Below are positions 2,954 to 34,224 of a stretch of DNA of 55,442 bases, piece by piece; positions within the stretch are counted from its first letter, which is position 1; the number at the start of each line of letters is the position of its first letter. Where the stretch lies: IMG/VR virus record IMGVR_UViG_3300031566_000041, positions 1 through 55,442 of that record. The stretch is one strand, 5' to 3'. The notes under the pieces are model-generated. The model was not told where the DNA came from. It did no database searches and worked only from the letters and a program-made list of their open reading frames with translations. Source of the stretch: a virus (Duplodnaviria > Caudoviricetes). Both the position numbers and the translations under genes were made by a program.

Positions 2954-3015
2954 TCCGTCTCCTTTTCAGCCTTTCGCCGCCGCCTTTGGCCGCGCTATCG
3001 TTAAGTTCGACAGGG

Positions 3016-3053
3016 GATATATACCAGCGGAAAGTCAAAAGTGTCGGAAAAAA
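3016..3053 (-). promoter_or_regulatory. Putative phage sigma-dependent promoter (copy 1)
   Basis: Minus strand TTTTTTCCGACA-cttttgactttccgct-GGTATATATC, facing the recombinase operon. Confidence 0.7.
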
Positions 3054-3218
3054 CTTTGGGCTGGAGCAGTTTTTTCGTAGGCAAGGACAGAGGTCGTATT
3101 TGTCTCGGCCACTATACTTTCTCCGCCCGATTTGATATATAGAGCCTAGAAACCACACGAGTCGCCTGTTCAAACAGGGGCCGGGACTTGATTAGAAAGG
3201 GATTGTTACGAGAATCCA

Positions 3219-4004
3219 ATGGGACACATCAGGCTAGGGAACCTTCCTCGCACTCGGAAATGGCAACAGGTCGTTGCCCTTATAGAGGGCGGAGCGGGAA
3301 CAACCCAGATTGCTAACGCAACCATTACGGCAGCGGAGCAAGGGTTGAACTTAGCGGCCGAAGACAAGGGCCTGGTCGAAACCATCTGGCTTCTTACGCA
3401 ATTGCCCTTGGCCGCAAAGAGCAACAACTTTGCCGATGCTCTTCGAAATGCAGGTCTAGATGTTTCCGATTCTCCAACCCTGCTGGAGGTAGTCGGCGCG
3501 TTCTCTGATGCAGTCGACCACCGGCTGGCCAACAATGGCGGACGGACGGATCTGGGTGAGATGGCCCAGATGGCTGCGTCCGAAACGATGACGCAGTTGA
3601 TCGGGAGCCGGACACAGAATCTTTTCGGCACAACCCCAGACGACGTCAAGAGCGCCTTCTCCACCCTTGCCACAAACAAGCAGTTCAGCATCTTTGCCAG
3701 GGATTTTTTCGCCCGCCTGACAGACAAGTGTCTTGATTATTTTGTCAGCAGAGCCGTTGCTCACAATGTGGGGGAGGGCCGACGTTTTCGGACACTGGCC
3801 CAGCAGGGTGAATTCACCAAGGCTCTCGGGACCCATAGTTATGAGGCCTCGAGAATCGTCGAGGAGTTTTCCGGGGGCTGGTTCTCAAAGACCAACTGGG
3901 AGAATAAAGGCATATCGAGAAAGGATGCCGCCGGTTTCGCGCACGTTGCCATGAAGAAGATCGTGGCGGAACTCAAGGAAGGAGCGCAAACCGATGACAA
4001 ATGA
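3219..4004 (+). CDS. Helical partner protein of QueC-like enzyme (QatB-like position; begins MGH-)
   Basis: 261-aa ORF overlapping the downstream QueC-like gene by 11 nt; Gly2. The functional call is by context only. Confidence 0.6.
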   Translation: MGHIRLGNLPRTRKWQQVVALIEGGAGTTQIANATITAAEQGLNLAAEDKGLVETIWLLTQLPLAAKSNNFADALRNAGLDVSDSPTLLEVVGAFSDAVDHRLANNGGRTDLGEMAQMAASETMTQLIGSRTQNLFGTTPDDVKSAFSTLATNKQFSIFARDFFARLTDKCLDYFVSRAVAHNVGEGRRFRTLAQQGEFTKALGTHSYEASRIVEEFSGGWFSKTNWENKGISRKDAAGFAHVAMKKIVAELKEGAQTDDK

Positions 4005-20398: not shown

Positions 20399-21925
20399 AT
20401 GGCGGGCCTAAAACCCAGGGACCGCCGTCTGGCGGAAACGCTGATGAACCCGGTCCTGTGGGGCCAGGCTTACCTCAAGAACCGAGACGAGACGCCCCGG
20501 AGCTACTGGCCGCACCAGGCCGAGGACCTGCTCTGCGAGGTCAGGAACATCATCCACCTGGATGGCCGGGACGCGGGCAAGAGCGTGAACATCACCACCG
20601 ACGCGCTCCACTTCGCCTTCATCACCACCGGCGGCCAGGGCCTGATCGCCGCGCCTCACCAGGGCCATCTCGATACCCTGATCGAGGAGATCGAGTTCCA
20701 ACTGGAATCCAACCCGGACCTGATGGACAGCATCGCCATCAGCAAGTACGGCAAGCCCAAGATTCACCGCAAGCCCTACTTCCGGCTGGAGTTCGCCAAC
20801 GGCTCGATCCTTTACTTCCGACCGGCGGGGGCTTACGGCGACTCGTTCCGCTCGCTGCACGTGGACCGGGTCTGGGTTGACGAGGGCGCGTGGCTCTCCG
20901 AGAAAGCGTGGAAGGCCCTGCGCCAGTGCCTCAAGGCCAACGGCAAGCTGCGGATTTACTCGACTCCCAACGGTCTGCGCAACACCACCTATTACCGCCT
21001 CACATCCTCGGACCAGTTCAAGGTCTTCCGCTGGCCCTCGTGGTTGAATCCGGCTTGGAGCGAAGAGCGCGAGTCGGAGCTAATCGAATTCTATGGAGGC
21101 AAGGACACCGCGGGCTGGCAGCATGAGGTCGCGGGTGAACACGGCAAGCCCTCCTACGGCGCGTTCAACATCGAGTACCTGACCCTGTGCCGGCAGGAGC
21201 TATTGGAATACCAGAAGGTGGTGATTACTGGCGACGAGCTAAAGAACTGCGAGACCGAGGATGACTCCTGCGACCGGCTGGAGATGCTCCTCAATCTCAT
21301 GCCGCAGACCGGCACGTTCTGGATCGGCGGCGACCTGGGCTATACCAACGACCCCACCGAGCTCGTGGTCTTCCGGGAGAGCGAAGCCGGCGAGCGGTCG
21401 GTGCTGAAGCTCATTCTGCGCGTCCACATGGAGCACGTGACCTATCCTCACATCGCCCAGGCCATTGCTCTGCTCGAACGATACTTCTCGCCGGTCGGGA
21501 TCGGCGTGGACAACGGCGGCAACGGCCTGGCTGTGGTCCAGGAGCTATTGACGCTCGACAAGTACAAGCCGCTCCAGTTGGAGGGACGGTTGGCCGGGTA
21601 TGACTTCGGCGGAATGACGACCCTGGCGGTGCGGGACGGCCATGAGGTCAAGAAGCGGACCAAGGAGCTGATGACGAGCCTCATCAACGGCGCGCTCCAG
21701 AGGAAGCAACTCATCTTCCCAGCCGATGATATGGAGATCGAGGACCAGTTCACCACGCACACCTACACACTGCGGGACGGCAAGGTGATCTACGGGAAGG
21801 GCAACGACCACATCGTTGACGCGGTGCGTTGCGCCATACTCGCCCGCGAGCAGGGCAACTTGAACGGGGCCGGCCAGGAGACGGTCCACTTGGTGCCGCT
21901 GATGACGGAGCCGGTGTTTATTTAG
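20399..21925 (+). CDS. terL: Terminase large subunit
   Basis: HQ motif, GRDAGKS Walker A, VWVDEG Walker B, STPNG, nuclease domain IGGDLG..DHIVDA. Confidence 0.92.
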   Translation: MAGLKPRDRRLAETLMNPVLWGQAYLKNRDETPRSYWPHQAEDLLCEVRNIIHLDGRDAGKSVNITTDALHFAFITTGGQGLIAAPHQGHLDTLIEEIEFQLESNPDLMDSIAISKYGKPKIHRKPYFRLEFANGSILYFRPAGAYGDSFRSLHVDRVWVDEGAWLSEKAWKALRQCLKANGKLRIYSTPNGLRNTTYYRLTSSDQFKVFRWPSWLNPAWSEERESELIEFYGGKDTAGWQHEVAGEHGKPSYGAFNIEYLTLCRQELLEYQKVVITGDELKNCETEDDSCDRLEMLLNLMPQTGTFWIGGDLGYTNDPTELVVFRESEAGERSVLKLILRVHMEHVTYPHIAQAIALLERYFSPVGIGVDNGGNGLAVVQELLTLDKYKPLQLEGRLAGYDFGGMTTLAVRDGHEVKKRTKELMTSLINGALQRKQLIFPADDMEIEDQFTTHTYTLRDGKVIYGKGNDHIVDAVRCAILAREQGNLNGAGQETVHLVPLMTEPVFI

Positions 21926-22042: not shown

Positions 22043-23539
22043 GTGGAAGGGAAAGGACAAATCACGAACGAAGACCTCCTGGCGCAGGGGGTGATTATCG
22101 CGCCGCTGGCATCGGCTGCGGCCCTGGACCCGGCGGTGTTCGCCAAGGTCTCGGCGAACGAGGCCATTCCCGTGACCTGGGAAGACCGGGCGCGGAGGGC
22201 CTGGGAGTATTACGTTGAGGAGCCGCTGGTCAAAAACTGCGTGAACTCCTGGCGAACCTTCGCCGTGGGCGACGAGATTAAAGTCGCCAGCGATGACGCG
22301 GGCGTGAAGGAGGCCGCCAGCGAACTGGCTTACAAGATTAGCGTCTCGGCCTTCGTGAAGGCCATGATCCTGCAACTGCTGGTCAAGGGCGACGCCATCG
22401 GGTTCAAGGGCTACACCAAGGACGGCAAGGACATCGAGGAGGTCGTGTGCGTGAACCCGATCTCGGTCAAGGTCCGGTACGAGAACGGCGAACTGGTCGA
22501 GGCCAAGCAATACCCCGAGGACGCGCCGAGCGCGGGAGACGCCCTGAATCTGCCGGTCAAACAGGTGCTCCACCTCAAATGGGACGCCCCGCCCTTCTCG
22601 CCGCGCGGCAACTCACTGGTGCTCCCCGCGTTCCAGTCCATCGAACTCCTGCGCGACTATCGCCGGGCCGAACAAGCCATTGCCAAGCGCTGGGCCACTC
22701 CCTTCCGGCTGCTCAAGGTCGGCGGCGCTTATGGCCAGAAAATGGTCATGCCCGACCAGACCATGCTGGAGCAGGTCCGGGATATGGTGAACAAGATGGA
22801 CCTGAAGAGCGGGCTGGTGGTCCCATTCTACGTCACGGTCGAGACCCACGGGACCGAAGGCCAAGTCCTCAACGTCGAGGACAAGGTCAAGGAGGTCAAG
22901 GAAGACATCATGGTCGCGCTCGGGCTGTCGCGCACGCTCATCACGGGCGACGGCCCCAACTTCGCCACGGCCTCGGTGAGCCTGCAGAAGATGCTGGTCA
23001 TGATCCGGGAGATCAAGCAGGCCGCCCGCGACATCCTGGCCTGGGTCTTTGACGACTGGATGGAACTCAAGGGGCATAAGGACAAGACCCTCCAGTTTCT
23101 GTTCAACGATCTTGACCCCAGCGACGCGGTGGACGTGAAGCGCCTGCTCATCGAACTCTATGACCGCAAGCTCATCAGCCGGGCGAGCCTGCAGCTGAAG
23201 ATGGACCTCGACCCGGACATCGAGGCGGCCAATAGGGAGAGCGAGAAGAAGTCGGTGGACCTGCTGGATGAGAAGCAGATCAAGCCCATCGTGGACATGG
23301 TCATGGCCGGGATCATGGGCGTGGAGGTCGCGCAGAAGATGCTCGGCCTGGACCCGGCGGCGAACAAGGCGAGCGCATCGGTGGAGGCCGACTATGCCCG
23401 GGCAATCGGTGACGAGGTCTGCGACTCGTGCGCTCACTTCGACGAGGAGAAGAACCATTGCCGGGCGCGGAAATCCGAGACAACTTTTTCTTCACCAGCC
23501 TGCCGCTTCTTCGACGCCCGCATTGCCCCGGCAAGCTGA
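22043..23539 (+). CDS. Portal protein with C-terminal four-Cys motif
   Basis: Position after TerL, ~500 aa, LLVKGDA, VLHLK..SPRGNSL, NFATA motifs. Confidence 0.85.
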   Translation: MEGKGQITNEDLLAQGVIIAPLASAAALDPAVFAKVSANEAIPVTWEDRARRAWEYYVEEPLVKNCVNSWRTFAVGDEIKVASDDAGVKEAASELAYKISVSAFVKAMILQLLVKGDAIGFKGYTKDGKDIEEVVCVNPISVKVRYENGELVEAKQYPEDAPSAGDALNLPVKQVLHLKWDAPPFSPRGNSLVLPAFQSIELLRDYRRAEQAIAKRWATPFRLLKVGGAYGQKMVMPDQTMLEQVRDMVNKMDLKSGLVVPFYVTVETHGTEGQVLNVEDKVKEVKEDIMVALGLSRTLITGDGPNFATASVSLQKMLVMIREIKQAARDILAWVFDDWMELKGHKDKTLQFLFNDLDPSDAVDVKRLLIELYDRKLISRASLQLKMDLDPDIEAANRESEKKSVDLLDEKQIKPIVDMVMAGIMGVEVAQKMLGLDPAANKASASVEADYARAIGDEVCDSCAHFDEEKNHCRARKSETTFSSPACRFFDARIAPAS

Positions 23540-23551
23540 TCGGAGTCGTCC

Positions 23552-26500
23552 GTGCTGTCCGCCCTCGCCATTAAGACACCCCTGACCCAGGCCGAGGCCA
23601 TCCGCCAGGCCACGGCGCGGAGCGTCAAAGCCAGGAACCTATACACCGAGCAGGTGGCGAGCGATCTCTCCGGCATCCTGGCCGACGCCGAGGACGAGGT
23701 CCGCAAGGTCATCCTGCATTACAAGACCCTTGGTTCGCTCCCGGACAACAAGCTCGCGGCGGTCCAGGGCTTGAAGAAGCTTGAAGCCGACCTCCAGCAG
23801 ATCACCAGCACGCTCCGCAAGGAGCAGACGCTCCGGTTCAAGAAGGCGACGAAGGCTTCCTTCCGCCAGGGCATCTATCGCGGTATTGACGAGTTCGCTT
23901 CGGCCCAGCTGCCCTTTTACCGCGACCTCAAGCCCGAGGGCATTGATAAGCTCTCCACCAAGGTCTTTACGCTGGTGGACACCGACGCGCTCGACTTCAT
24001 GGCCAACTACAACCTGGTCCTGGCCGGCGACGTGAACCGCGAGTTGGCGGACGGGATCAAGCGCGTGGTCTTCTCCGGGGTCGCCACGGGCAAGGGCGTG
24101 GAGGACATTGTCCGCGACCTGGGCCACGTGGTGAAAGACCCGGAGTCCTTCCGGCACGCGGGATCGAAGGTGTTCAGCAAGGCCCAGTACCGGATGGAAC
24201 TCATCGCCCGCACCGAGGTGCTCCGCGCCCACAACCAGGGCCGGATCAAGTTCCACAAACACGTGGGCGTGAAGAAGCTCGAATGGATGACAATGGACGA
24301 TGAGCGGGTGTGTCCGGTGTGCGGCCCGCTCGACGGCAAGGTCTTTTTGATTGACCGCTTCCCCCAGCAGCCCGCGCACCCCAACTGCCGGTGCACCAAC
24401 ATCGTGGCCTGGCCCATCAACATCTGCGGGAGCGAACTCATCGCCGTGGCCGCGGACGAACCAGCCGCGTGCATCATCCCGCCCGAGGGAATCGAGGGCC
24501 AGGCGCTCGCCAAGGCCCGCGAGGACTCCAAGCTCAAGGCCGCGTTCGAGAAAGGCGAGATCGGCGACCTCCAAGCCCTCACCGCCAAGCAACTCCAGAC
24601 TCTGGCCAAGCAGAACGGTGTGTCCATCGCCCGCACCAAGGCCGACTTCATCAAGCTCTTGGATCAGGCCGAGCCGGGCATTGAACACGGGGACCTCTCC
24701 GGCCAGGCGCTCCAGGCCAAGATCAAGGAATACAAGATCGGCCTGCTGCGCACCAAGGAGGACCTGGTCAAGCTCCTGGCCGAGAAGCAGGCCGCGCTCA
24801 AGCAGGCCCAGCAGATAACCGACCAGCTGAAGAAGGTTCCCGCGCCAGGCGGTCTCCAGGGTCTCTCGGTGAACGACCTCAAGGACATCGCCAAGGACAA
24901 GGGCGTTTCGCTCAACATGACCAAGCAGGACGTGATCGAACTCCTGGACGAGATCGAGCCGGGCGTGGACCACTCCGGCCTCCAGGGACAAGACCTCATC
25001 GCCGCCAAAGAGAAGCATTCCATCGGCCCGCTCAAAAACAAGCAGCAACTAGTCAAAGCCATCGAGAAGTCCGCCGGCCAGGACCTGGCCGAGAAGACCA
25101 AGCAGGAAGCGCTCGACTCGGCGCAGAAGGAAAAGGTCAAGAAGGCCAAGGAGACCATCGAGCAGGCGGCCTCCAAGGTGATCGTGCCCAAGTCGCCCGC
25201 TGGCTATAACGATTTCCTCGCGGCGGCCAAGGAAGCCGAATCCGCGCTCGCCCAGGGTGCGGGCTTGCCGCAGGAGATGCTGGAGTCCAACGCCAAGGAG
25301 CTCGCGCTCAAGAAGAAGCTCTTCCAGGACCAGGTCGCGGCCATGAAATCGGGCGACCTCAAGACCCTGGCCAAGGACACCAAGCTCAAGCACTGGCAGT
25401 GGGCGAACAAGGACGAGATGGTCACGCTGTTCACCGAGACCGACCCGGCCAAGGTGGAGGCGGCCAAGGCCAGCATCGAAGCCAAGCACGGGGCCTGGGC
25501 CGAGAAGCACGGCGGCAAGAAAGCTCCGACCGCGCCCAGTCCGCCAGTTAAAACTCGTCCAGCGCCTGCGCCTTCTCCTCCCGAGCCGTCCCCACCAGAG
25601 CCGCCGGTCTTCACCAAGAAGGGATCGGAGTTCGAGGACGCGGACCAGGCTTGGGAGAAAAAGGGCAAGCCCGGCAACTTCAAGCCCGCAGGCAAGGCCG
25701 AGGTCGGCGGCGCGCACACCAAGGAGTTCTGGGTAGACGAGAGCGGGGCCAAGTGGCTGTTCAAGCCGATTGAAAAATCCGGCGACGAGTTCATCGCCCA
25801 GGGCGAGGAGGCGGCCTACCAGATCGGGCGGCTGATTGACCCGGACGCCGTCGAAGTGCGGACCATCAACTTGAACGGCAAGCTCGGCTCGATCCAGAAG
25901 TGGCATACCGATCTTCAGGCCAAGGGCGATTTCTCGGACGTGGACCCGACCCAGCTGACGACCACCGAACTGGAACAGATTCAACGCGAGCACGTGGTGG
26001 ACTGGCTCGTCTCCAACCATGATGGCCACTCGAAGCAGTTCCTGCGGGCGCGGAGCGGCAAGGTCTACGGCATTGACAAGGGGCAACTCTTCAAGCACCT
26101 GGGGGAGGACAAGCTCTCCATTGACTACCACCCTAACGGCAAGTTCGGCGAGCAGGAGCCTTACTACAACACGGTCTTCCGCGCGGTCAAGCAGGGCAAG
26201 GTCAAGGCCGATCCCTCGGTCACGCTCCGCTACATCCGTGAGGTCGAAAAGATTGCAGACGATGACTACCTGGCGCTACTCAAGCCCTATGCCGATGGCC
26301 GCTTCGGTAAAAACGAGGCCAAGAAAAAAGCTTTCCTCGATCTGGCGCTGGAGCGCAAGCGCAACCTGCGCCGGGATTTTGAGGGGTTCTATGCCGACGT
26401 GCTGGGCAAGAAGGGCTTTCGCTTCGAGGACGCGGCTGCGGCCCTCCCCAAGAAAGGCCGCCTCGGTCCAGCCGAGGAAAAGCTCATCGAGGAAGTGAGG

Positions 26501-28138
26501 AAGCTTGGCTGGCAGGGCAAGGTCCTGCCCTTTGACGAGGATGACATCGAGGACCAGAACGCGCTCATCTTCGTGGAGACGGCCAAGGGCAAAGAGCGGA
26601 CGGTCATCAAAATGAAGGTCCGGCCCGAGGCCGACGCGAAAATCCTGGAGGCGCTTAAAAAAGCCGGGATTGATCCCGCCTCGGCCAAGGTGGGCGACAC
26701 TCTGTCCGAGGACCAGTTCGCGGACGACATCCTGGCTGCGGCCAAGACCATCAACCACCACAAGGACGACAAGAAGTACAACCAGGACAAGTTGAAAAAG
26801 GCCAAGGGGCACGAGAAGGCTCTCCAGAAGTTGGCCAAGTCCAGCGACCCGGACGTGCAGGGCATGGCCAACGAGTACCTGGCTTGGCTCGCCAGGATCG
26901 AGGAGGCGGAAAGCGCGAAGAAGCCGATCAAGGACATGTTCGGGGCTTACACGAAGAAGCACGCATCCCCTCGCCCGGAGAAGTCTAAGGACGTGGGCTT
27001 CAAGGTTACCCGCTCGAAGGTGCTGCACGAGAAACGCGAACTGAAGAATGGCGACCTGGTCGTGGTGAAGGAAGACGCAGATAACTCGGCCATGTTCAAG
27101 GGCCACAGTTTAAAGGCAGGAGAGCAATTCGAGGTGGAATTCGGTGATGGTGTAAGGGCCGTGTACCGCCCCTGGTCGGAGAAGAATCTCTATGCCCAGC
27201 GCGGCGAGTTCGAGATGGTGCTGCCGGATAAACCGGACGCCAAGAGCATCGAGCGGGCAATGGGGCACATGGAAACCCTGGGCCTCAAGTCCACCGCCGC
27301 GACTGCCGAGGACTCGGAACTGCTCTACCTCCATAAGCAAGCTTACCTCTCCAAGGCGGAAAAAGAGTCCGCCTACAAGAAGATGATCGCGGACCTTGAC
27401 CGGCGCTCGGCCAGCAAGGAGGTCCGCGTCCGGGAGATGCGGGCCTTCTGGGAGAAGCGGCTGGGCGCAAAGGACCTGACCCGTATGCCGGGCTACGATC
27501 CCATTGGCGAGTATCAGCTGGCGTTCAAGCAACCGGGCCAGGGCGCGGGCTATCGGCATCAGTACCGGTTCGACCTCTCGGACGAGGACCTGGAGAAGGA
27601 GATGAAGGGCTACGCGCTCCATCACCACCTCACCAACGGTGAGAGCGTGTCCTCGTTCATTGAAAAGGTGGTCGAGCAAAACGGCGCGGCGGTGAGCACC
27701 ATCGAGAAGCTGCGGGCCGGGGTCCCGGTGGGCGGCATGTCGCCGGAGGAGGACATGAAAACCGGCGGCGCGAGCTACTTCTTCACGCGAATCAAGAAGG
27801 TCCCGGACAAAGGCCCGGACGAGACCGGGCTGTACTTCAAGAAGCGGCTCCTGCGCCGAATGGACGCTATCAGCTACGACCACGACGCTTATGGCAAGGT
27901 GGTGGACGATTACGTGACGCAGCATCGCGGCAGCACGCCCGAGGACTGGAAGAAATTCGCTCGCAAGAGTGGAAACGAGACCATCTTCAAATACTCGGTG
28001 ACAGTACTGGACAACATCGAGGTCATCGTGGCCGGAAGCCAGAACGAGCGGAAGAAGATCTTGGAGTCCTTCCGCAAGAAGGGCATCGTGAAACTTCCCG
28101 ACGGCCGCAAGGTCGAGGACATTGTGATTGCGAGGTGA
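23552..28138 (+). CDS. MuF / SPP1 gp7-like minor head protein with extended cargo domains (HeH-like repeats, kinase-like, ART-like)
   Basis: IARTEVLRAHN..DERVCPVC..P.HPNCRC MuF signature; later KWLFKP, EEAAY, DWLVSNHDGH, IDKG kinase motifs. Confidence 0.85.
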   Translation: MLSALAIKTPLTQAEAIRQATARSVKARNLYTEQVASDLSGILADAEDEVRKVILHYKTLGSLPDNKLAAVQGLKKLEADLQQITSTLRKEQTLRFKKATKASFRQGIYRGIDEFASAQLPFYRDLKPEGIDKLSTKVFTLVDTDALDFMANYNLVLAGDVNRELADGIKRVVFSGVATGKGVEDIVRDLGHVVKDPESFRHAGSKVFSKAQYRMELIARTEVLRAHNQGRIKFHKHVGVKKLEWMTMDDERVCPVCGPLDGKVFLIDRFPQQPAHPNCRCTNIVAWPINICGSELIAVAADEPAACIIPPEGIEGQALAKAREDSKLKAAFEKGEIGDLQALTAKQLQTLAKQNGVSIARTKADFIKLLDQAEPGIEHGDLSGQALQAKIKEYKIGLLRTKEDLVKLLAEKQAALKQAQQITDQLKKVPAPGGLQGLSVNDLKDIAKDKGVSLNMTKQDVIELLDEIEPGVDHSGLQGQDLIAAKEKHSIGPLKNKQQLVKAIEKSAGQDLAEKTKQEALDSAQKEKVKKAKETIEQAASKVIVPKSPAGYNDFLAAAKEAESALAQGAGLPQEMLESNAKELALKKKLFQDQVAAMKSGDLKTLAKDTKLKHWQWANKDEMVTLFTETDPAKVEAAKASIEAKHGAWAEKHGGKKAPTAPSPPVKTRPAPAPSPPEPSPPEPPVFTKKGSEFEDADQAWEKKGKPGNFKPAGKAEVGGAHTKEFWVDESGAKWLFKPIEKSGDEFIAQGEEAAYQIGRLIDPDAVEVRTINLNGKLGSIQKWHTDLQAKGDFSDVDPTQLTTTELEQIQREHVVDWLVSNHDGHSKQFLRARSGKVYGIDKGQLFKHLGEDKLSIDYHPNGKFGEQEPYYNTVFRAVKQGKVKADPSVTLRYIREVEKIADDDYLALLKPYADGRFGKNEAKKKAFLDLALERKRNLRRDFEGFYADVLGKKGFRFEDAAAALPKKGRLGPAEEKLIEEVRKLGWQGKVLPFDEDDIEDQNALIFVETAKGKERTVIKMKVRPEADAKILEALKKAGIDPASAKVGDTLSEDQFADDILAAAKTINHHKDDKKYNQDKLKKAKGHEKALQKLAKSSDPDVQGMANEYLAWLARIEEAESAKKPIKDMFGAYTKKHASPRPEKSKDVGFKVTRSKVLHEKRELKNGDLVVVKEDADNSAMFKGHSLKAGEQFEVEFGDGVRAVYRPWSEKNLYAQRGEFEMVLPDKPDAKSIERAMGHMETLGLKSTAATAEDSELLYLHKQAYLSKAEKESAYKKMIADLDRRSASKEVRVREMRAFWEKRLGAKDLTRMPGYDPIGEYQLAFKQPGQGAGYRHQYRFDLSDEDLEKEMKGYALHHHLTNGESVSSFIEKVVEQNGAAVSTIEKLRAGVPVGGMSPEEDMKTGGASYFFTRIKKVPDKGPDETGLYFKKRLLRRMDAISYDHDAYGKVVDDYVTQHRGSTPEDWKKFARKSGNETIFKYSVTVLDNIEVIVAGSQNERKKILESFRKKGIVKLPDGRKVEDIVIAR

Positions 28139-28611
28139 GCATGAAGGAGTTCATCGAAAAGGAGAAGGAGCGGCTGCAGGCGCTGTTCTCGGAGTTCAAC
28201 CGGCAAGGCTCGTGGATCGAGATGAGGGAGCGTGGCGAGAAGCCGATCCGCCTGGGCCTGGTGGACAGCTACACGGTCACCCGAGTGGCCCCGCAGTTCA
28301 ACGCTGCGGGCGAGATGACCCATGCGGACTTCTGGCTCCTGTTCAAGATGGCGGGCTACGACCAGGGCTTCCAGTTCTCGCACACCATCAAGGTTTGCCG
28401 GTGGGAGCAGGACGACACCTATCTCATTGACCTCGACGATGACCGGGAACGGCGCTTCCACGCGGAGTTGATCATGGAGGTGTCGGAGCCGGGGATGGTT
28501 GAGGATTGGAAGGCCTGGCAAAAATACAAGGCCGAGAACCGCGAGCGTTTCGACATCGCGGACCAGGACATTCTGGCCGAACACATCCGGATCGCGGAGG
28601 AGTGGGAATGA
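28135..28611 (+). CDS. Acidic hypothetical protein, candidate immunity protein 1
   Basis: Overlaps the MuF stop codon; acidic; function by context only. Confidence 0.6.
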   Translation: MSMKEFIEKEKERLQALFSEFNRQGSWIEMRERGEKPIRLGLVDSYTVTRVAPQFNAAGEMTHADFWLLFKMAGYDQGFQFSHTIKVCRWEQDDTYLIDLDDDRERRFHAELIMEVSEPGMVEDWKAWQKYKAENRERFDIADQDILAEHIRIAEEWE

Positions 28612-28943
28612 AGCTCCGCTACATGATTGAGTACGCGCTCCGCGACCGTCTCCGCAATCCCCATTACGAACCCATCGGCGTCTGGGTCCAGGGGCCCGGT
28701 CCCGGCCTCGACCTCGTGATCGAATACCTCCCCGGCAACCCCGAGGCCCAGGAAGAGGCCGAGTGGATCATCAACCGGCTGGTGGAGAACGGGATCAAGA
28801 ACTTACCGGACGATTTCCTCGAGTACCATCGGACAACGCTCTCTCCCTATCGCGGGATGGGGGGGAGCGAAATTGAGGTTGACGAATTTCCCTCCTCGGA
28901 GGCCTGCGCCAAAGTTATCATCGCCAAGTTCACCGCTTCATAA
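28608..28943 (+). CDS. Hypothetical protein, candidate immunity protein 2
   Basis: ATG 28608 overlapping the previous stop, GGAGG RBS. Confidence 0.6.
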   Translation: MKLRYMIEYALRDRLRNPHYEPIGVWVQGPGPGLDLVIEYLPGNPEAQEEAEWIINRLVENGIKNLPDDFLEYHRTTLSPYRGMGGSEIEVDEFPSSEACAKVIIAKFTAS

Positions 28944-28954
28944 TTTTTTTCAAC

Positions 28955-28992
28955 TTTTTTCCGACACTTTTCACTTTCCGCCGGTATATATC
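28955..28992 (+). promoter_or_regulatory. Putative phage sigma-dependent promoter (copy 6)
   Basis: TTTTTTCCGACA-cttttcactttccgcc-GGTATATATC upstream of the head operon. Confidence 0.75.
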
Positions 28993-29066: not shown

Positions 29067-32000
29067 ATGGAGCTTTTTGCTACTGATTACGAACGGTTGG
29101 CGTTTCTGCTGGAGACCGACGCGGCCTTGGAGTTGGACTTCGAGGCGCTGGAGGCTTATGCGCGTGAAGAAAGTCAACCCGAACTTCCCCCGGATAAGCG
29201 CCCCAAGTACATCACCAACTACATCGGCTCGAAGCAGAAGCTGGTGGACTGGATTTGGAAGCATACCCCGGAGGGCGTGGAGTCGGCGCTGGACGCCTTC
29301 TCCGGCTCGGCGGTCGTGGCCTACATGTACAAGACCAAGGGCCTCAAGGTCATGGCCAACGACCGGCTGCGCTATTGCTACCACGCGGCGCGGGCGATCA
29401 TCGAGAACGACAAGGTCCGGCTCTCGGACGACGAGCTTACGGCGCTGCTTGCGGACAACCCCAAGGCCGGGACGTTCGTCCGGGACAATTTCAAGGGCAT
29501 ATTCTTCGCCAAGGGCGTCCACGGCCTGATTGATAACATCAGGGCCAACGCGGACAAGCTCGATGGCTTCAAGAAGGACATCGCGCTCTTCGCTCTGGGC
29601 AAGACCTGCATGTCGGGCAAGGGCGGATTCGGGCATTTCTCGTCGTCCACGCGCTACGGCAAGCGCGAGGATACGCCCGAGGAGTTCAAGGAGCGGTTCA
29701 GCAAGAACGTGGCGCGGATTAACGCGCTGGTGTTCGACAACGGTGAGGAGTGCAAGGCGTTTCGGAAGGACGTGAACGAACTCCTGCCGAGCATCAAAGG
29801 CGACCTAGTTTACTTCGACCCGCCTTACGCGACCGAATTCTCCACCACCAACTATGAGAAATCCTACCACTTTGTCGAGGGCCTGATGAACTATTGGGAG
29901 GGCCTCACCCTGGTCAAGGACTCGAAGACCAAGCATTACGAGACCGACCACAAGACGGTGACCAAGGCCAACGCCAATGAGTTCTTCGAGACCTTCCTGG
30001 GCAACGCGAAGCACATCCCGCACTGGTTGATCTCTTACCGGGATCACGCCTACCCGAACGAGCATGACATGAAGAAGATTATCGGCTCGCTCGGCCGCGA
30101 GTCGGCCATGCGTTCGCACGACCACCATTACTCGATCACCTCGCAGCACGGTGACGCCTCGCACGCCAAGGAGCGGCTGTTCATCTGCAAGCGGGGCAAG
30201 GAAGAACAGAAGGCCGCGGCCTCGCTGGAGGCTTATGCAGAGGACGAGTTGCAGACCCAGGCAATCTGGGACGAGACCCCGAATGAAATCCGCTTCCGCG
30301 TGCGTGACCCGGAGGAGTTCGAGAAGGGCAGCTTCCGGCGGAAGGGGCTGGAGGGGGTCGAGGGCGTCGCCATCATCATGGGCCGGCTCAAGAAAGAACA
30401 CGTCCAGGAGGGGCACGACCCCAAGGCGATGGTCCTTCAGGCCTACCGCTTCGCCAAGAAGACCGAGGACAACCCGAACGGCTGGACCCTGGACAAGGCC
30501 AAGGAGTGGGTGAAGAAGCACGAGTCGGAGAGCGCAGCGGAGGCGGCCCTACGGATCGAGGACAACATGCAGGCCCTGGCCGACGCGCCGCTGGGTGAAG
30601 CTCTCGATCTGCTCACCTGCCAGGCAGGGCAAAACGATCCGGTCCGGGTCACCGGGTACATGGGTAGCAAGTACCTGATGATGGGCTGGATTGAGCGGCA
30701 CGTGCCCAAGGGCGCGAAGACCATCCTGGACGCCTTTTCCGGCGGTGCGAACGTGGCCTATAACTTCAAGCGCAAGGGCTACAAGGTCATGGCCAACGAC
30801 CTGCTCCGGTATCCTTATCACCTGGCCCGCGCGGTGGTCGAGAACTCGCACGACAAGCTCAGCGATGAGGACATCGAGATGCTGCTCGCTCCCAACCCGG
30901 GGGCGGGCACGTTCATCCTGGACCACTTCCACGGCTACTACTACACCAAGCCCATTCTGCAATGGCTTGACCAGGTGTGGTCGAACATCCAGAAGCTCTC
31001 GGGCTACAAGAAGGACTTGGCGCTCGCCGCGTTGGGCACCGCAGTCAAGGCCAAGAGCGCGTTCGGCCAGTTCTCGCGCTCGAAGATGACGAAGCGGGCC
31101 GGCCACGAAGTGCACCAGCCCACAGACGTGGACGAGACACAGGCCAGCGCAAGCCTTAAGGAATCGCAGCTGGTCAACCTGCCGCTCTCTCGGCTGGTTG
31201 AATCCTTCAAGCGCTCGATCAAGCAACTCAACAACCTGGTGTTTGACAACGGCCAGGAGTGCAAGGCCTTCAATTTGAACGCGGTGGAAGCGATCCGGCG
31301 CTTCAGCGCGGACGCGCTTTACCTCGACCCGCCTTACGTCACCGAGTTCGGCATCAACGACTACGAAGACTCGCTCCACTTCGTGGAAGGGTTGATGACC
31401 CGCTGGGCCGACAAAAAGCTCAACGCCAACCCCCGGCGCAACTACCCGTCCCGCACCCGTTTTAATAAGGAATCAATCCGCAAGCTGATGGAGACGATGG
31501 CGGCGGACGCCCGGGGCAAGTACGGCACGGTGCTGCTCTCCTACCGGGACCGGGCCTTCCCCCGCGAGAACGAGATCAAGGAAATCCTCGGCGACCACTT
31601 CGGCCAGGTCCAGGTGAGCGGCATGGACGTGGTCTACACCATTGCCAAGAACATTGGGCGGGAAGGCCAGTATGCGAAGGAGCTTCTGTTCGTGGCCTCG
31701 AAGGCGAGAAGCGCGGCCCGGTCCAAGGGGTCGCTATCGGCGGCCGCGTGCCACACCTCGGTCCCGGTGGATATCCAGGTCAATGCATCAGAGGGCATGT
31801 TCACCGAGGCGCTCGATCTTTCCAAGCAGGCCGGAGACCCGCAGTTCACCTTCATTCTCTGCCGGGTCGGGACCAACAAGAACGGGGACCATTTCACTGC
31901 CGAGGAACTGGCCGCACGGTACATGACGGCGGTTAACAAGAAGATTGACCTCAAGCACTCGCAGGACTTCACCGACATCGTGGGCGGGATCGTGGCCGCC

Positions 32001-32969
32001 GATTACCTGGAGGACGAGAACGGCGGCCGGGTGGAGTGCGTGGGCGAGCTTTACGCCACGGACAGCCAGAACGCGCAGCTGGCTTACAAGCTGATGAAGC
32101 GCGGGATCATCACCCAGGTTTCGATGGAGTGCGATTACGATGAAGGCGAGTGCTCGATCTGCGGGAAAAAGGTGAAGAACAAGAGCGACTACTGCGTTCA
32201 CCTGCGCAAGTACAAGGGCGGCTCATTCCAGGGCAAGCCGGTGTTCGAGATTCTACGTGGAGTCACCTTCACCGGCCTCGGGCTTTTAGACCGCAAGGGT
32301 GCGGACGAGAACGCGAGGATAACCCAGGTTGCGGCGGTTGCTGAAACGGAAATTTCAAACCAGGACAAAGGAGGTCCACACATGGACGAGAACGAGAAGC
32401 AGGAAGAGAGGGCGGCCGAAGCCGCCAAGAAGAAAAAGGACGACGGCGAGGCCGGCGCTCCGGCGGACGACAAGACCCGGATCAAGGAGTTGGAGAAGGA
32501 GAACGCGGACCTGAAGAAACAGGTCTCCACCCTCCAGAAGCGGGTCGAGGAATTGGAGGCCGAGCAGCAGGCCGCGTCCAACCGCTCGCGGGCGCAAAAG
32601 CTCCTGCGCAAGATCGAGAAGCAGGGCATGGCGTTCGAGACGGACGAGGACCGCGAGGCCGAGTTCAAGCGGCTGGCCTTGATGTCGGACGAGGCGTTTG
32701 CCGCGACCGAGGCGGCCTACGAGCGGATGATCAAGGCCAGGTCCGAAGGCGTGAAGAAGGAGGACAAGGCCGAGCCTCCCCCGAAGAAGGAGCAGTCCAA
32801 AGCGGACAAGGCGGACGAGGAACCGGCCATGCGCAGCGACGCCGGGGTGCGGCCCAAGGACGTGGACGACCACAAGGCGACCCTGGAAGACAAGCTGAAG
32901 GCCGGGTTCATGGTCGCCTATCGGCACAGGGTAGCCACGGCAACCGGCGAGCGGGCCGAGGCCAATTAA
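29067..32969 (+). CDS. Fusion: two D12/Dam-class N6-adenine DNA methyltransferase domains + prohead protease + scaffold
   Basis: MTase1 YIGSK/DAFSGS/MAND/YFDPPY; MTase2 YMGSK/DAFSGG/MAND/YLDPPY; protease-like NKNGD.F..EL, IDLKH, VSMEC..CSICG..CVH, TGLGLL..GAD..A; C-terminal coiled coil; located just before the decoration and capsid genes. Confidence 0.85.
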   Translation: MELFATDYERLAFLLETDAALELDFEALEAYAREESQPELPPDKRPKYITNYIGSKQKLVDWIWKHTPEGVESALDAFSGSAVVAYMYKTKGLKVMANDRLRYCYHAARAIIENDKVRLSDDELTALLADNPKAGTFVRDNFKGIFFAKGVHGLIDNIRANADKLDGFKKDIALFALGKTCMSGKGGFGHFSSSTRYGKREDTPEEFKERFSKNVARINALVFDNGEECKAFRKDVNELLPSIKGDLVYFDPPYATEFSTTNYEKSYHFVEGLMNYWEGLTLVKDSKTKHYETDHKTVTKANANEFFETFLGNAKHIPHWLISYRDHAYPNEHDMKKIIGSLGRESAMRSHDHHYSITSQHGDASHAKERLFICKRGKEEQKAAASLEAYAEDELQTQAIWDETPNEIRFRVRDPEEFEKGSFRRKGLEGVEGVAIIMGRLKKEHVQEGHDPKAMVLQAYRFAKKTEDNPNGWTLDKAKEWVKKHESESAAEAALRIEDNMQALADAPLGEALDLLTCQAGQNDPVRVTGYMGSKYLMMGWIERHVPKGAKTILDAFSGGANVAYNFKRKGYKVMANDLLRYPYHLARAVVENSHDKLSDEDIEMLLAPNPGAGTFILDHFHGYYYTKPILQWLDQVWSNIQKLSGYKKDLALAALGTAVKAKSAFGQFSRSKMTKRAGHEVHQPTDVDETQASASLKESQLVNLPLSRLVESFKRSIKQLNNLVFDNGQECKAFNLNAVEAIRRFSADALYLDPPYVTEFGINDYEDSLHFVEGLMTRWADKKLNANPRRNYPSRTRFNKESIRKLMETMAADARGKYGTVLLSYRDRAFPRENEIKEILGDHFGQVQVSGMDVVYTIAKNIGREGQYAKELLFVASKARSAARSKGSLSAAACHTSVPVDIQVNASEGMFTEALDLSKQAGDPQFTFILCRVGTNKNGDHFTAEELAARYMTAVNKKIDLKHSQDFTDIVGGIVAADYLEDENGGRVECVGELYATDSQNAQLAYKLMKRGIITQVSMECDYDEGECSICGKKVKNKSDYCVHLRKYKGGSFQGKPVFEILRGVTFTGLGLLDRKGADENARITQVAAVAETEISNQDKGGPHMDENEKQEERAAEAAKKKKDDGEAGAPADDKTRIKELEKENADLKKQVSTLQKRVEELEAEQQAASNRSRAQKLLRKIEKQGMAFETDEDREAEFKRLALMSDEAFAATEAAYERMIKARSEGVKKEDKAEPPPKKEQSKADKADEEPAMRSDAGVRPKDVDDHKATLEDKLKAGFMVAYRHRVATATGERAEAN
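32382..32969 (+). CDS. Nested in-frame scaffolding protein (internal start)
   Basis: AAAGGAGGT 6 nt before in-frame ATG 32382 (MDENEKQ); highly charged coiled-coil product. Confidence 0.65.
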   Translation: MDENEKQEERAAEAAKKKKDDGEAGAPADDKTRIKELEKENADLKKQVSTLQKRVEELEAEQQAASNRSRAQKLLRKIEKQGMAFETDEDREAEFKRLALMSDEAFAATEAAYERMIKARSEGVKKEDKAEPPPKKEQSKADKADEEPAMRSDAGVRPKDVDDHKATLEDKLKAGFMVAYRHRVATATGERAEAN

Positions 32970-33360: not shown

Positions 33361-34224
33361 ATGGAGATGAATCAAATGAACGTGCACAGCCAGGAGTACA
33401 TGCAGAGCATGGCCCGGCTCATGAGCGAGGCGCTGGAGTCGCCGGAGGGACTGCATGCGCTGGCCGCCGCCATCGCCGCGCCCATCGAGCAGGAGATCAA
33501 GCGCAAGGAGATTTCCTCGCTCCTGCTCACGAGCCACACCCTGCCCAAGGGCGAGCGGCCGATCTACCAGAAGAAGCCGCGCGTGAAGGCCTACTGGATC
33601 AGCAAGGAGGGCGAGGCTCAAGAGAGCGAACTCGGCCAAGACGAGATCGAGTTCCCCACGCACCGCATCCACTCCGCGCCGATGGTCGACATCGCGGTCT
33701 TGAAGAACGGCAACATCGGGACGCTCACCGACATGCAGACCGCTGCCGCCGACGAGATCAGGAAGGAGATCGACAAGCGCACCCTCACCGTGATCACGGC
33801 GTCTGTCCCGGCGGAGAACACGGTCGAGGTCACGGGCGACACGCTCACCGAGGAGGCGCTCAACGAGGCCGTCTCGATCATCGAGGACCTGGAGCTTTCG
33901 GTGAAGTACATCGTGATGCGGGGCCGGCGCTTCAACGACATGCGCGGCTGGGACTTGGACCCGCAGACCAAGCTCGAACTGCGCGCCAAGGGCGTGATCA
34001 AGAACTACGGCACCGGCGGCATCTTGCTCACCGCGTCCGCGCCGCTGAACGAAATCCTGATCATCCCGGACGAGGAGATCGGCAAGCTGCCGGTGCGCGA
34101 GACGCTCAAGACCGAGTCCATCGAGCAGAAGACGAAGTTCAAGACCGGCTGGCTGATTTGGTCGGAGCAGGGCCAGGGCATCACCCGGCCGGAAATCCTG
34201 GCCAAGATCAAGCTGCTCGGATAA
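33361..34224 (+). CDS. Major capsid protein (HK97 fold)
   Basis: Position, strong RBS, 287 aa, AYWISKEGE E-loop-like segment, C-terminal G.GITRPE..AKI pattern. Confidence 0.85.
   Translation: MEMNQMNVHSQEYMQSMARLMSEALESPEGLHALAAAIAAPIEQEIKRKEISSLLLTSHTLPKGERPIYQKKPRVKAYWISKEGEAQESELGQDEIEFPTHRIHSAPMVDIAVLKNGNIGTLTDMQTAAADEIRKEIDKRTLTVITASVPAENTVEVTGDTLTEEALNEAVSIIEDLELSVKYIVMRGRRFNDMRGWDLDPQTKLELRAKGVIKNYGTGGILLTASAPLNEILIIPDEEIGKLPVRETLKTESIEQKTKFKTGWLIWSEQGQGITRPEILAKIKLLG

What the first reader, a model, noticed from the sequence alone, without database searches (positions are those of the whole stretch)
23552..28943. Giant MuF head protein with two candidate toxin domains and two downstream candidate immunity genes
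Seen: MuF core (to ~24420), helical repeats, a Pro-rich linker (~25520-25610), a HipA/PI3K-like kinase (GGAHTK, KWLFKP, EEAAY, DWLVSNHDGH, IDKG; ~25700-26400), and a terminal domain with H..S..YFFTR..NE spacing (~27610-28138) reminiscent of ADP-ribosyltransferase folds. Two small translationally coupled ORFs follow, ending exactly at the next promoter. Known: MuF proteins of temperate phages can be polymorphic toxins with a C-terminal toxin and downstream immunity gene. Inference: a virion-delivered dual effector (kinase + ART-like) with one antidote each, possibly for host takeover or counter-defence. The kinase call is firmer than the ART call.
Basis: partly seen in the sequence, partly recalled or inferred. 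Interest (0 to 1): 0.8.

Follow-up and report, generated by a model that had tools for sequence, protein, structure and literature searches.

The report
Phage head protein carrying two enzymes
A 1528-residue prophage head (MuF) protein carries DNA-binding repeats, an intact-looking atypical kinase and a DarT-like ADP-ribosyltransferase, and is always followed by two small genes that are lost together with the enzymes; it is probably enzyme cargo delivered with the phage DNA, from a very widespread cassette that seems unstudied.

Summary

The "polymorphic toxin" frame fits less well. The mid+ART module is the constant C-terminus of about 970 clusters of giant MuF proteins, and the variable part is the middle (kinase, NUDIX, Zeta). 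This is closer to Aravind's "polyvalent proteins".

The two coupled small ORFs follow in 96 of 96 relatives with enough flank. They are absent from 3 of 3 relatives whose MuF lacks this kinase/DarT-like extension, so they belong with the enzyme cargo. Whether they are antidotes is untested: the complex predictor was unavailable and there is no domain-specific co-evolution.

A conserved promoter-like element lies at 28961-28990. This scan found the same family before on two other genomes. Verdict: a new variant of a known kind, interest about 0.6.

The parts
23552..28138 (+). Giant MuF gene, 1528 aa (P0001)
   Evidence: ORF list and translation. phrog_6577 covers aa 46-1374, E 6e-233. Full-length relatives at 53-83% identity.
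23552..24436 (+). MuF core (aa 1-295), the head-incorporation part
   Evidence: Pfam Phage_Mu_F 168-283, E 4.8e-17. PHROG minor head / head morphogenesis families. Relatives L118 and L119 consist of this part alone, 287 aa at 65-66% identity.
24569..25432 (+). SAP/Rho_N-like helix-extended-helix repeats (aa 340-627; two clear units, two or three degenerate ones)
   Evidence: Weak Pfam Rho_N (E 0.0014) and SAP (E 0.0037) at 435-465. Rho_N at E 3.7e-8 and 7e-9 in relatives P0179 and P0192. Internal repeat score 77 against a shuffle maximum of 46.
25520..25609 (+). Pro-rich linker (aa 657-686)
   Evidence: Read directly from the translation.
25670..26446 (+). Atypical protein-kinase-like domain (aa ~707-965): Lys738, Asp824-x-His826-x-x-Gln829, Asp842 (IDKG)
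26474..27223 (+). Conserved 'mid' region (aa 975-1224), fold unknown; always accompanies the C-terminal module
   Evidence: Detected in 111 of 111 representatives of >=1000 aa that carry the C-terminal domain. No Pfam family.
27224..27568 (+). Helical bundle preceding the ART core (aa 1225-1339)
27569..28135 (+). DarT-like ADP-ribosyltransferase fold (aa 1340-1528): His1358, Tyr1409, Arg1413, Glu1476
28135..28611 (+). orfA, 158 aa (156 aa from ATG 28141), no known family; the fastest-evolving part of the cassette
   Evidence: Present in 96 of 96 relatives with flank and absent in 3 of 3 relatives that lack the extension. 138 homologues, all 'hypothetical'.
28608..28943 (+). orfB, 111 aa, no known family; ATGA overlap with orfA
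   Evidence: Same presence/absence pattern as orfA.
28961..28990 (+). Conserved bipartite promoter-like element CCGACAC-N13-CCGGTATATATCC upstream of the next gene
   Evidence: Alignment of 9 loci; kept in 8, including L118 and L119 where it directly follows the short MuF. Below the threshold of the consensus scan.
29067..32969 (+). Context: 1300-aa protein with two D12 N6-adenine methyltransferase domains, a weak prohead-protease match and a coiled coil
   Evidence: Pfam MethyltransfD12 E 7.8e-48 with 3 stretches; phrog_27806; phrog_18299 'head maturation protease' E 1.1e-4. Peptidase_S78 E 0.032 here and 0.0095 in the L118 homologue.

Best explanation
The gene encodes a virion-associated 'polyvalent' MuF protein of a temperate myovirus. 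The N-terminal MuF core (about 295 aa) is the part needed for head incorporation next to the portal. Everything after it is accessory cargo: SAP/Rho_N-type DNA-binding repeats, a flexible Pro-rich linker, an atypical kinase of the PI4K/CtkA/HipA kind, and a constant ~550-aa C-terminal module ending in a DarT-like ADP-ribosyltransferase. Both enzymes keep their catalytic residues and are probably active.

The likely mechanism, all of it inferred, runs as follows. The protein is made late and built into the head through the MuF core. It is held on the packaged DNA by the repeats and leaves the capsid with the DNA. Early in infection it phosphorylates and ADP-ribosylates targets in the new host: host proteins, defence systems or, given the DarT likeness, DNA.

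The two small, translationally coupled genes belong to this cargo unit. Most likely they are co-made partner proteins that keep the enzymes silent or correctly folded in the producing cell until packaging. That they bind or neutralise the enzymes is not shown.
For: Shown here:
- MuF domain and position. The gene order is terminase, portal, MuF, with sheath, tape-measure and serine integrase genes in the same record. A 100% identical copy lies inside an 81-kb bacterial contig.
- Kinase. The fold match is strong. Across 174 homologues, Lys738 is kept in 155 (19 gaps), Asp824 in 166, His826 in 164 and Asp842 in 162. Position 829 is Gln in 156 and Asn in 8, and divergent homologues show the canonical DxHxxN. 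There are weak HipA_C hits in four separate homologues.
- The C-terminal module is the constant part. It gives 970 clusters at E<=1e-3. It ends within 20 aa of the protein end in 142 of 150. The mid region is present in 111 of 111 long proteins, the kinase in only 59 of 111. Other middles are NUDIX (4), Zeta toxin (2), an intein (1) and a weak ExoTox ART (1) among 29 proteins scanned.
- The cargo is dispensable for the head. L118 and L119 have portal at 73% identity, a 287-aa MuF core at 65-66%, then directly the methyltransferase gene at 77-78% identity.
- orfA and orfB track the cargo. Both are present in 96 of 96 loci with >=900 nt downstream (72 of 72 distinct sequences). Both are absent in L117, L118 and L119.

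From papers (passages read): MuF fusions and polyvalent proteins were proposed to be packaged in the head and injected (PMC5512222; PMC5576092; PMC9503650).
Against: - No experiment or proteome shows that the protein is in virions, is ejected, or is active.
- The kinase has Gln in place of the usual catalytic-loop Asn, and the HipA_C match is far below Pfam's cut-off (14.2 against 30.5 bits). A profile search of PDB sequences found no kinase.
- Foldseek E-values for DarT are weak (0.02-0.24). No Pfam ART family matched at E<=0.1. The equivalence of His/Tyr/Glu to DarT's catalytic positions was not checked by superposition.
- For the small ORFs, pairwise-distance correlations over 12 distinct loci are highest with the MuF core (r 0.95 and 0.94) and lowest with the kinase (0.64 and 0.76). 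After controlling for overall divergence they show no positive link to the kinase or the ART.
- Small ORFs behind distant carriers of the ART module (Pan1, L095) are not detectably related to orfA or orfB, apart from one marginal hhalign match (E 0.015, prob 3%).
- The three loci without cargo may represent only two independent events.
Confidence: 0.6

Rival explanations
1. Classical MuF polymorphic toxin with immunity genes. The enzymes are toxins used by lysogens against non-lysogenic kin. orfA and orfB are immunity proteins, one per toxin, that protect lysogens.
For: The phage is temperate (serine integrase; prophage copy). Small ORFs directly downstream are the pattern reported for 89.4% of the MuF toxin genes analysed in PMC5576092 (passage). 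orfA and orfB are lost together with the enzyme part. orfA is the fastest-evolving part, with mean distance 0.94 against 0.42-0.70 for the others. A Zeta-type relative, L095, also has two small ORFs after the gene.
Against: The C-terminal domain is constant, not polymorphic. Identity is even along the protein, with no drop at the tip. No alternative toxin cassettes were seen in the relatives. The small ORFs are translationally coupled to a late head gene, with no separate promoter found by the scan, so expression in lysogens is not evident. There is no domain-specific co-variation and no similarity to any known immunity family.
Confidence: 0.15
2. orfA and orfB are assembly or packaging helpers for the oversized MuF protein, not inhibitors. 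For example, they could be chaperones that fold it or fit it into the procapsid.
For: Their distances correlate best with the MuF core and with each other (r 0.93-0.95; partial r 0.59 between orfA and orfB) and not with either enzyme. They are made with the head genes. They are absent when the extension is absent, which fits a helper as well as it fits an inhibitor.
Against: No known chaperone or scaffold family matches. orfA evolves faster than any part of its presumed client, which is more typical of conflict-type partners.
Confidence: 0.15
3. The 'enzymes' are inactive relics that serve only as bulk, DNA-binding or structural parts of the head.
For: Gln replaces the catalytic-loop Asn in the kinase of this subfamily. 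No sequence family model reaches its threshold for either domain.
Against: Near-invariance of the putative catalytic residues across 150 and 174 diverged homologues. Relatives do without the whole extension, so it is not structurally required.
Confidence: 0.05

Closest known systems
Polyvalent proteins of phages and conjugative elements (Iyer, Burroughs, Anand, de Souza, Aravind 2017, PMC5512222; passages read)
   Same: A large late-gene protein joins unrelated enzymatic domains with a head-packaging domain (MuF). It includes Rho-N/SAP DNA-binding domains, kinases and ARTs, and is proposed to be injected with the DNA.
   Different: Their ART family has an H-Y-D site (Tox-ART-HYD2 clade), whereas here the third position is Glu and the fold is nearest DarT. 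Their kinase is described as lacking the C-terminal subdomain, whereas this model has a helical C-lobe like PI4KII. I could not test whether the two kinase families are the same, because their alignment file is not in the held text. The constant mid+ART C-terminal module and the two-gene appendix are not in the passages I read.
MuF polymorphic toxins (Jamet et al. 2017, PMC5576092; passages read)
   Same: An N-terminal MuF domain, a temperate phage, enzymatic extension(s), and small ORF(s) immediately downstream.
   Different: There the C-terminal tip is the variable toxin. Here the tip is constant and the middle varies. There are two enzymes and two small ORFs. No kinase is mentioned in that paper (0 occurrences).
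DarT of DarTG toxin-antitoxin systems (structures 7omv/7omw, 8baq, 7yk3; review PMC11281641, passages read)
   Different: Only 8-11% identity and no Pfam match. It is fused to a head protein rather than free-standing. The neighbour is not a macrodomain like DarG. DarT's Gln-x-Glu is [Asn/Asp]-Glu here. The substrate is unknown.
HipA / CtkA / PI4KII atypical kinases
   Same: Kinase fold with the ATP-binding Lys, a D-x-H-x-x-N/Q catalytic loop and a metal-binding Asp. Weak HipA_C matches at the catalytic loop.
   Different: Below every family threshold. Gln replaces Asn in this subfamily. There is no HipB/HipS-like partner. The domain is embedded in a structural protein.
Mycobacterium prophage McProf gp54 and relatives (annotated 'minor capsid and ADP-ribosyltransferase domain fusion protein')
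   Same: A MuF-type N-terminus (VG15), the same kinase-like domain (30-33% identity, E 1e-28), an ART at the C-terminus, and a small ORF downstream.
   Different: Its ART is the unrelated R-S-E type ADPrib_exo_Tox (PF03496), not DarT-like. It has no SAP repeats and no orfA or orfB homologues.

Membership tests
MuF / SPP1 gp7 head morphogenesis (Pfam PF04233) | Sequence match above the curated threshold | tested here: met
   63.1 bits against a cut-off of 29.6, aa 168-283.
MuF / SPP1 gp7 head morphogenesis (Pfam PF04233) | Gene next to the portal and terminase genes in the packaging module | tested here: met
   TerL 20399-21925, portal 22043-23539, MuF 23552-.
MuF / SPP1 gp7 head morphogenesis (Pfam PF04233) | Presence in the virion, bound to the portal | not testable with these tools
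   Needs virion proteomics or cryo-EM.
Polyvalent proteins (Iyer et al. 2017) | Two or more unrelated effector domains in one polypeptide of a phage or conjugative element | tested here: met
   Kinase fold, ART fold and DNA-binding repeats.
Polyvalent proteins (Iyer et al. 2017) | Encoded among virion or late genes, or fused to a packaging domain | tested here: met
   Fused to MuF within the head module.
Polyvalent proteins (Iyer et al. 2017) | Delivery into the recipient cell at invasion | not testable with these tools
   Inferred only.
MuF polymorphic toxins (Jamet et al. 2017) | Variable C-terminal toxin domain on a conserved N-terminal MuF | tested here: not met
   The C-terminal domain is the constant part: 970 clusters, and it lies at the protein end in 142 of 150. 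The middle varies. Identity is even along the protein.
MuF polymorphic toxins (Jamet et al. 2017) | Small ORF immediately downstream | tested here: met
   orfA (156-158 aa) and orfB (111 aa), both translationally coupled. Present in 96 of 96 relatives.
MuF polymorphic toxins (Jamet et al. 2017) | The downstream ORF neutralises the toxin (immunity) | not testable with these tools
The co-variation test was inconclusive.
Protein-kinase-like superfamily, PI3/4K-HipA-CtkA type | Bilobal kinase fold | tested here: met
Protein-kinase-like superfamily, PI3/4K-HipA-CtkA type | ATP-binding Lys, catalytic-loop D-x-H-x-x-N, metal-binding Asp | tested here: met
   Lys738, Asp824, His826 and Asp842 are conserved. 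Position 829 is Gln in 156 and Asn in 8 of 174. The assignment is by motif order, not by superposition.
HipA family (Pfam HipA_C PF07804) | Sequence match above the curated threshold | tested here: not met
   14.2 bits against a cut-off of 30.5. Homologues reach 18.3 and 23.7 bits.
DarT-type ADP-ribosyltransferase | ART fold closest to DarT | tested here: met
DarT-type ADP-ribosyltransferase | Sequence membership in a curated DarT/ART model | tested here: not met
   No ART family of Pfam matched at E<=0.1. No PDB sequence hit.
DarT-type ADP-ribosyltransferase | Catalytic Glu and NAD-binding His/Tyr | tested here: inconclusive
   His1358, Tyr1409 and Glu1476 are near-invariant and lie on strands in the expected order. 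Equivalence to DarT Glu160/Glu152 was not verified by superposition.
DarT-type ADP-ribosyltransferase | Macrodomain (DarG) or NADAR partner that reverses the modification | tested here: not met
   orfA and orfB have no Pfam or PHROG family and no PDB profile hit.
DarT-type ADP-ribosyltransferase | ADP-ribosylation of bases in single-stranded DNA | not testable with these tools
   Needs a biochemical assay.
ART of polyvalent proteins (Tox-ART-HYD2 clade) | H-Y-D active-site configuration | tested here: not met
   The third position is Glu in 144 of 150, with 6 gaps. The paper's definition was read in a passage.

The most novel reading that the evidence does not exclude
The mid+DarT-like module is the common warhead of a very large, almost uncultured superfamily of giant MuF head proteins. 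It would be a virion-delivered DNA ADP-ribosyltransferase, the offensive mirror image of the bacterial DarTG defence. On ejection it would mark single-stranded DNA, either to stall host or rival-phage replication or to mark the incoming genome itself. orfA would be a new, non-macrodomain inhibitor that keeps it off in the producing cell. The exchangeable middle enzyme (kinase, NUDIX, Zeta) would tune the attack to the host's defences.
Probability: 0.25. Interest if true: 0.85.

Novelty: new variant of a known kind. Interest (0 to 1): 0.62.

Why it matters
Phage proteins that enter the cell with the DNA act before any phage gene is expressed, so they are prime candidates for host take-over and counter-defence. 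Here a DarT-like enzyme, known so far as a bacterial anti-phage toxin, sits together with a kinase on a head protein. The cassette is found in prophages of many bacterial phyla: about 970 sequence clusters carry the C-terminal module. Yet it occurs in only 1 of 50,697 deposited phage genomes, which would explain why nobody seems to have studied it. Two culturable hosts with complete genomes carry relatives, Syntrophus buswellii DM-2 and Desulfosarcina widdelii PP31, so the idea is testable. A phage kinase was recently reported to disarm defences broadly (T7 kinase, PMC13645617; search listing and start of abstract only). That gives a precedent for the kinase half.

Tried and rejected
- Complex prediction (ART domain with orfA) was not available, so no binding prediction exists.
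- A profile of the kinase alignment against PDB sequences found only an ART, through the ART tails of some rows, and no kinase. The single-sequence PDB search found nothing relevant.
- The ESM Atlas gave no usable hit for orfA or orfB.
- orfA and orfB profiles against PDB sequences gave nothing below E 0.7.
- orfA and orfB HMMs against ORFs near distant carriers (McProf, Aikoy, Pan1, L093-L096) gave nothing at E<1. hhalign and BLASTP between the small ORFs of Pan1, L095 and this family gave one marginal match (E 0.015, prob 3%) and otherwise nothing.
- The mirror-tree test showed no enzyme-specific signal, with only 12 distinct loci.
Queries with NUDIX-type and short carriers found no loci, so the idea 'one small ORF per enzyme' could not be tested beyond Pan1 (one ORF) and L095 (two ORFs).
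- Megablast of 24 kb of the window against phage records gave no match.
- RNA: one metatranscriptome run holds contigs of relatives (85-97% alike) scattered from the portal gene to the methyltransferase gene. Contigs cannot rank genes or show lysogenic expression of orfA or orfB.
- Ct_MAD of Jamet et al. was considered and set aside. It derives from the C-terminal part of COG2369 proteins (passage). I did not compare it directly, because its profile is a supplementary file that I did not open.
- Literature searches turned up no paper describing this kinase + DarT-like MuF architecture. Only the held library was searched.
Full report
**What is there.**
The window is a 55,442-base virus record judged 98% complete. 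It carries a serine integrase, replication genes, large terminase, portal, major head protein, tail sheath, tube and tape measure, so it is a temperate myovirus. A 100% identical copy of the region lies inside an 81-kb bacterial contig, so it is a prophage.

ORF 23552-28138 (+) gives 1528 residues and follows the portal gene by 12 bases.

**Domain by domain.**
(i) Residues 1-295 are the MuF core. Pfam Phage_Mu_F matches at 168-283 with E 4.8e-17, above threshold, and many PHROG head-morphogenesis families match.

(ii) Residues 340-627 hold SAP/Rho_N-like helix-extended-helix units. Pfam matches are weak here (E 0.0014 and 0.0037) but clear in relatives (Rho_N E 3.7e-8 and 7e-9). Unit 434-467 aligns to 340-372 with score 77, against a maximum of 46 in 200 shuffles. 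A third unit is marginal.

(iii) Residues 657-686 are a Pro-rich linker.

(iv) Residues ~707-965 are a kinase.
- An alignment of 19 homologues (26-77% identity) has WLFKP, GSIQ, DWLxxNHDxH, IDKGQ and HPN invariant or nearly so.
- Divergent members carry the canonical D-x-H-x-x-N, while this subfamily has D-G-H-S-K-Q.
- The AlphaFold2 model (pLDDT 83.1, pTM 0.78) gave at least 500 Foldseek matches at E<=1e-3, and all listed matches are kinases. The best superpositions are on CtkA and PI4KIIalpha.
- Across 174 homologues Lys738 is kept in 155 (the other 19 are gaps), Asp824 in 166, His826 in 164 and Asp842 in 162.
- By sequence it is not a member of any curated family: HipA_C scores 14.2 bits against a cut-off of 30.5.

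(v) Residues 975-1224 are a conserved region with no recognisable family.

(vi) Residues 1225-1528 form the terminal domain.
- The model (pLDDT 85.8, pTM 0.82; 27 sequences) has a helical bundle (1225-1339) and an alpha/beta core (1340-1528).
- Foldseek's top eight hits are DarT structures (E 0.02-0.24, prob 0.57-0.99). They are followed by SopF, CteC, Tpt1, OspC3, PARP1 and pertussis toxin, all ADP-ribosyltransferase folds.
- In BFVD the matches include phage 'minor capsid' and ParB-domain proteins and baculovirus/iridovirus ORFs. A paper relates an 'ORF28' family of baculo-, asco- and iridoviruses to DarT (PMC9503650, passage). I did not check whether the ORFs that BFVD matched belong to that family.
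- His1358, Tyr1409 and Glu1476 sit on strands in the order expected for an H-Y-E transferase. They are kept in 142, 143 and 144 of 150 cluster representatives. Arg1339, Ser1397, Asp1401, Arg1413 and Asp1438 are kept in 144-148.
- I did not superpose the model on DarT, so residue equivalence with DarT Glu160/Glu152 (PMC11281641, passage) is inferred. No Pfam ART model matched at E<=0.1.

**How the architecture varies.**
The kinase-bearing form is very common. 288 long proteins matched among word-sharing candidates, and the 120 listed are 57-100% identical over the kinase region. Most are about 1500 aa and are named 'minor capsid' or 'SPP1 gp7 family'. Identity to relatives is even along the protein, with no drop at the tip.

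The terminal domain reaches much further: 970 clusters at E<=1e-3 and 299 at E<=1e-30 in a library of 1.84 billion representatives.

Among the best 150 representatives:
- It ends within 20 residues of the protein's end in 142.
- Of the 111 proteins of 1000 aa or more, all 111 also have the 'mid' region, but only 59 have the kinase.

Pfam scans of 29 of them showed the following:
- MuF-type N-termini in 15 (PF04233 in 14, PF06152 in 1).
- As middle parts: NUDIX (4), Zeta toxin (2), HipA_C (1), a weak ADPrib_exo_Tox (1) and an intein (1).
- No family at all in 13.

So the mid+ART module is the constant end and the kinase is one of several exchangeable middles. This is the reverse of a polymorphic toxin.

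The kinase domain travels independently as well. In Mycobacterium prophages (McProf gp54 and others, 30-33% identity) and in several metagenomic proteins it is followed by an unrelated R-S-E type ART (PF03496).

Only one of 50,697 deposited phage genomes, Pseudanabaena phage Pan1, has the DarT-like module.

Full-length relatives at 64-83% identity occur in contigs labelled as Chloroflexota, Planctomycetota, Nitrospirota, Acidobacteriota, Zixibacteria, Gammaproteobacteria and Thermodesulfobacteriota. These include the complete genomes of Syntrophus buswellii DM-2 and Desulfosarcina widdelii PP31. The labels of metagenome bins should be treated with care.

**The two small ORFs.**
orfA (28135 or 28141 to 28611) and orfB (28608-28943) are translationally coupled to the MuF gene and to each other. 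Neither has a Pfam, PHROG, PDB-profile or Atlas match. A profile search for orfA found 138 proteins; the 120 listed are 124-168 aa, and none carries a Pfam domain or a name other than 'hypothetical'.

Among relatives with at least 900 bases downstream of the terminal domain, 96 of 96 loci (72 of 72 distinct sequences) have both ORFs in the same order. 89 of 89 with enough upstream sequence have the kinase.

The informative exceptions are three loci with a closely related head module.
- L118 and L119 have portal at 73% identity and a 287-aa MuF at 65-66% identity that stops where the extension begins here. The methyltransferase gene (77-78% identity) follows after about 90 bases.
- L117 has a MuF core plus an ExoTox-type ART (554 aa).
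- None of the three has orfA or orfB, by tblastn or by HMM.

The unit 'extension + orfA + orfB' (about 4.6 kb) is therefore gained or lost as a whole. It is dispensable for making heads, and the small ORFs are tied to the cargo rather than to head assembly as such.

This does not show what they do. Over 12 distinct loci, orfA and orfB distances correlate most with the MuF core (0.95, 0.94) and with each other (0.93). They correlate least with the kinase (0.64, 0.76). Partial correlations give no positive link to the kinase or the ART. The sample is small and the genes are linked, so this is weak evidence against 'one antidote each'.

orfA is the fastest-evolving part (mean distance 0.94 against 0.42-0.70). 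A Zeta-type relative (L095, 2392 aa) is also followed by two small ORFs, and the first resembles the orfA profile only marginally (hhalign E 0.015, prob 3%). Pan1 has one small ORF, unrelated by sequence. The complex predictor was not available.

**The end of the cassette.**
After orfB comes a 123-base T-rich spacer. The simple consensus scan lists only a weak site at 28915-28944. An element CCGACAC-N13-CCGGTAnnTAnCC (28961-28990) is kept in 8 of 9 aligned relatives, including L118 and L119, where it directly follows the short MuF. It looks like a -35/-10 pair of a promoter (CCGACA, 18 bases, TATATA), but that is an inference.

**Most likely mechanism.**
Shown: the domain identities, the conservation of catalytic residues, the head-module position, the dispensability of the cargo, and the linkage of the small ORFs to it.

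Inferred from what the cited papers propose for MuF fusions and polyvalent proteins (PMC5512222, PMC5576092, PMC9503650; passages only):
- The protein is built into the head by the MuF core.
- It is tethered to DNA by the repeats.
- It leaves with the DNA.
- Its two enzymes act in the newly infected cell.

The DarT likeness makes DNA a plausible substrate, but fold alone does not fix the substrate. The small ORFs most likely keep the enzymes harmless or packaging-competent in the producing cell.

**Comparison and novelty.**
The thing works like a polyvalent protein and meets that definition as far as it can be tested. It fails the defining 'variable C-terminal toxin' feature of MuF polymorphic toxins. 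Its ART is not the H-Y-D family described for polyvalent proteins. Whether its kinase is the 'polyvalent kinase' of that paper I could not test, because their alignment file is not held.

Four literature searches found no description of this architecture. This scan had already reported the same family on two other genomes. I confirmed the kinase and DarT-like readings independently here. I could not test the earlier claim that the first small ORF plugs the transferase's active site.

New in this report:
- The constant-module/variable-middle picture.
- The cargo-less relatives.
- The conserved element downstream.
- The rarity of the module in cultured phages.

Noticed in passing
window 29067-32969: The next gene (1300 aa) has two D12 N6-adenine methyltransferase domains. 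These are followed by a weak prohead serine protease match (Peptidase_S78 E 0.032 here and 0.0095 in the L118 homologue; phrog_18299 'head maturation protease' E 1.1e-4) and a coiled coil. No separate protease or scaffold gene was recognised before the major head protein (33361-34224). It may be a methyltransferase fused to the protease/scaffold and so carried into the capsid, a second cargo protein.
   Followed up: partly
window 28961-28990: A conserved bipartite element CCGACAC-N13-CCGGTAnnTAnCC lies upstream of the methyltransferase gene in 8 of 9 aligned relatives, followed by a GC-rich possible hairpin and a GGAG-type ribosome site. It is a candidate late promoter or regulator site.
   Followed up: partly
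L012, L023-L025, L058, L082, L085, L089 (between orfB and the methyltransferase gene): In some relatives 1-4 kb of extra DNA sits between orfB and the methyltransferase gene, where the window has only 123 bases. This may be an insertion hot spot for accessory genes.
   Followed up: no
L117 3001-4665; L118 2998-3861; L119 ~2995-3800: Closely related head modules carry either a bare 287-aa MuF or a MuF with an ExoTox-type ART instead of the kinase/DarT-like cargo. These are natural swaps of the cargo on the same core.
   Followed up: partly
window 3994-6084: A 696-aa protein has a QueC-like match (phrog_1550, E 3.6e-19). It may be part of a 7-deazaguanine DNA-modification pathway, a further anti-restriction feature of this phage.
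   Followed up: no
L098-L115 (genome contigs): Relatives at about 70% protein identity appear in contigs assigned to at least seven phyla. This is either unusually broad spread of one phage group or mis-binned prophage contigs.
   Followed up: no
L095 4971-12149: A 2392-aa MuF relative with a Zeta-toxin-type middle (its query P0237 has Pfam Zeta_toxin, E 6.7e-19) and the same DarT-like end is also followed by two small ORFs (138 and 128 aa) and an MptE-like protein.
   Followed up: partly
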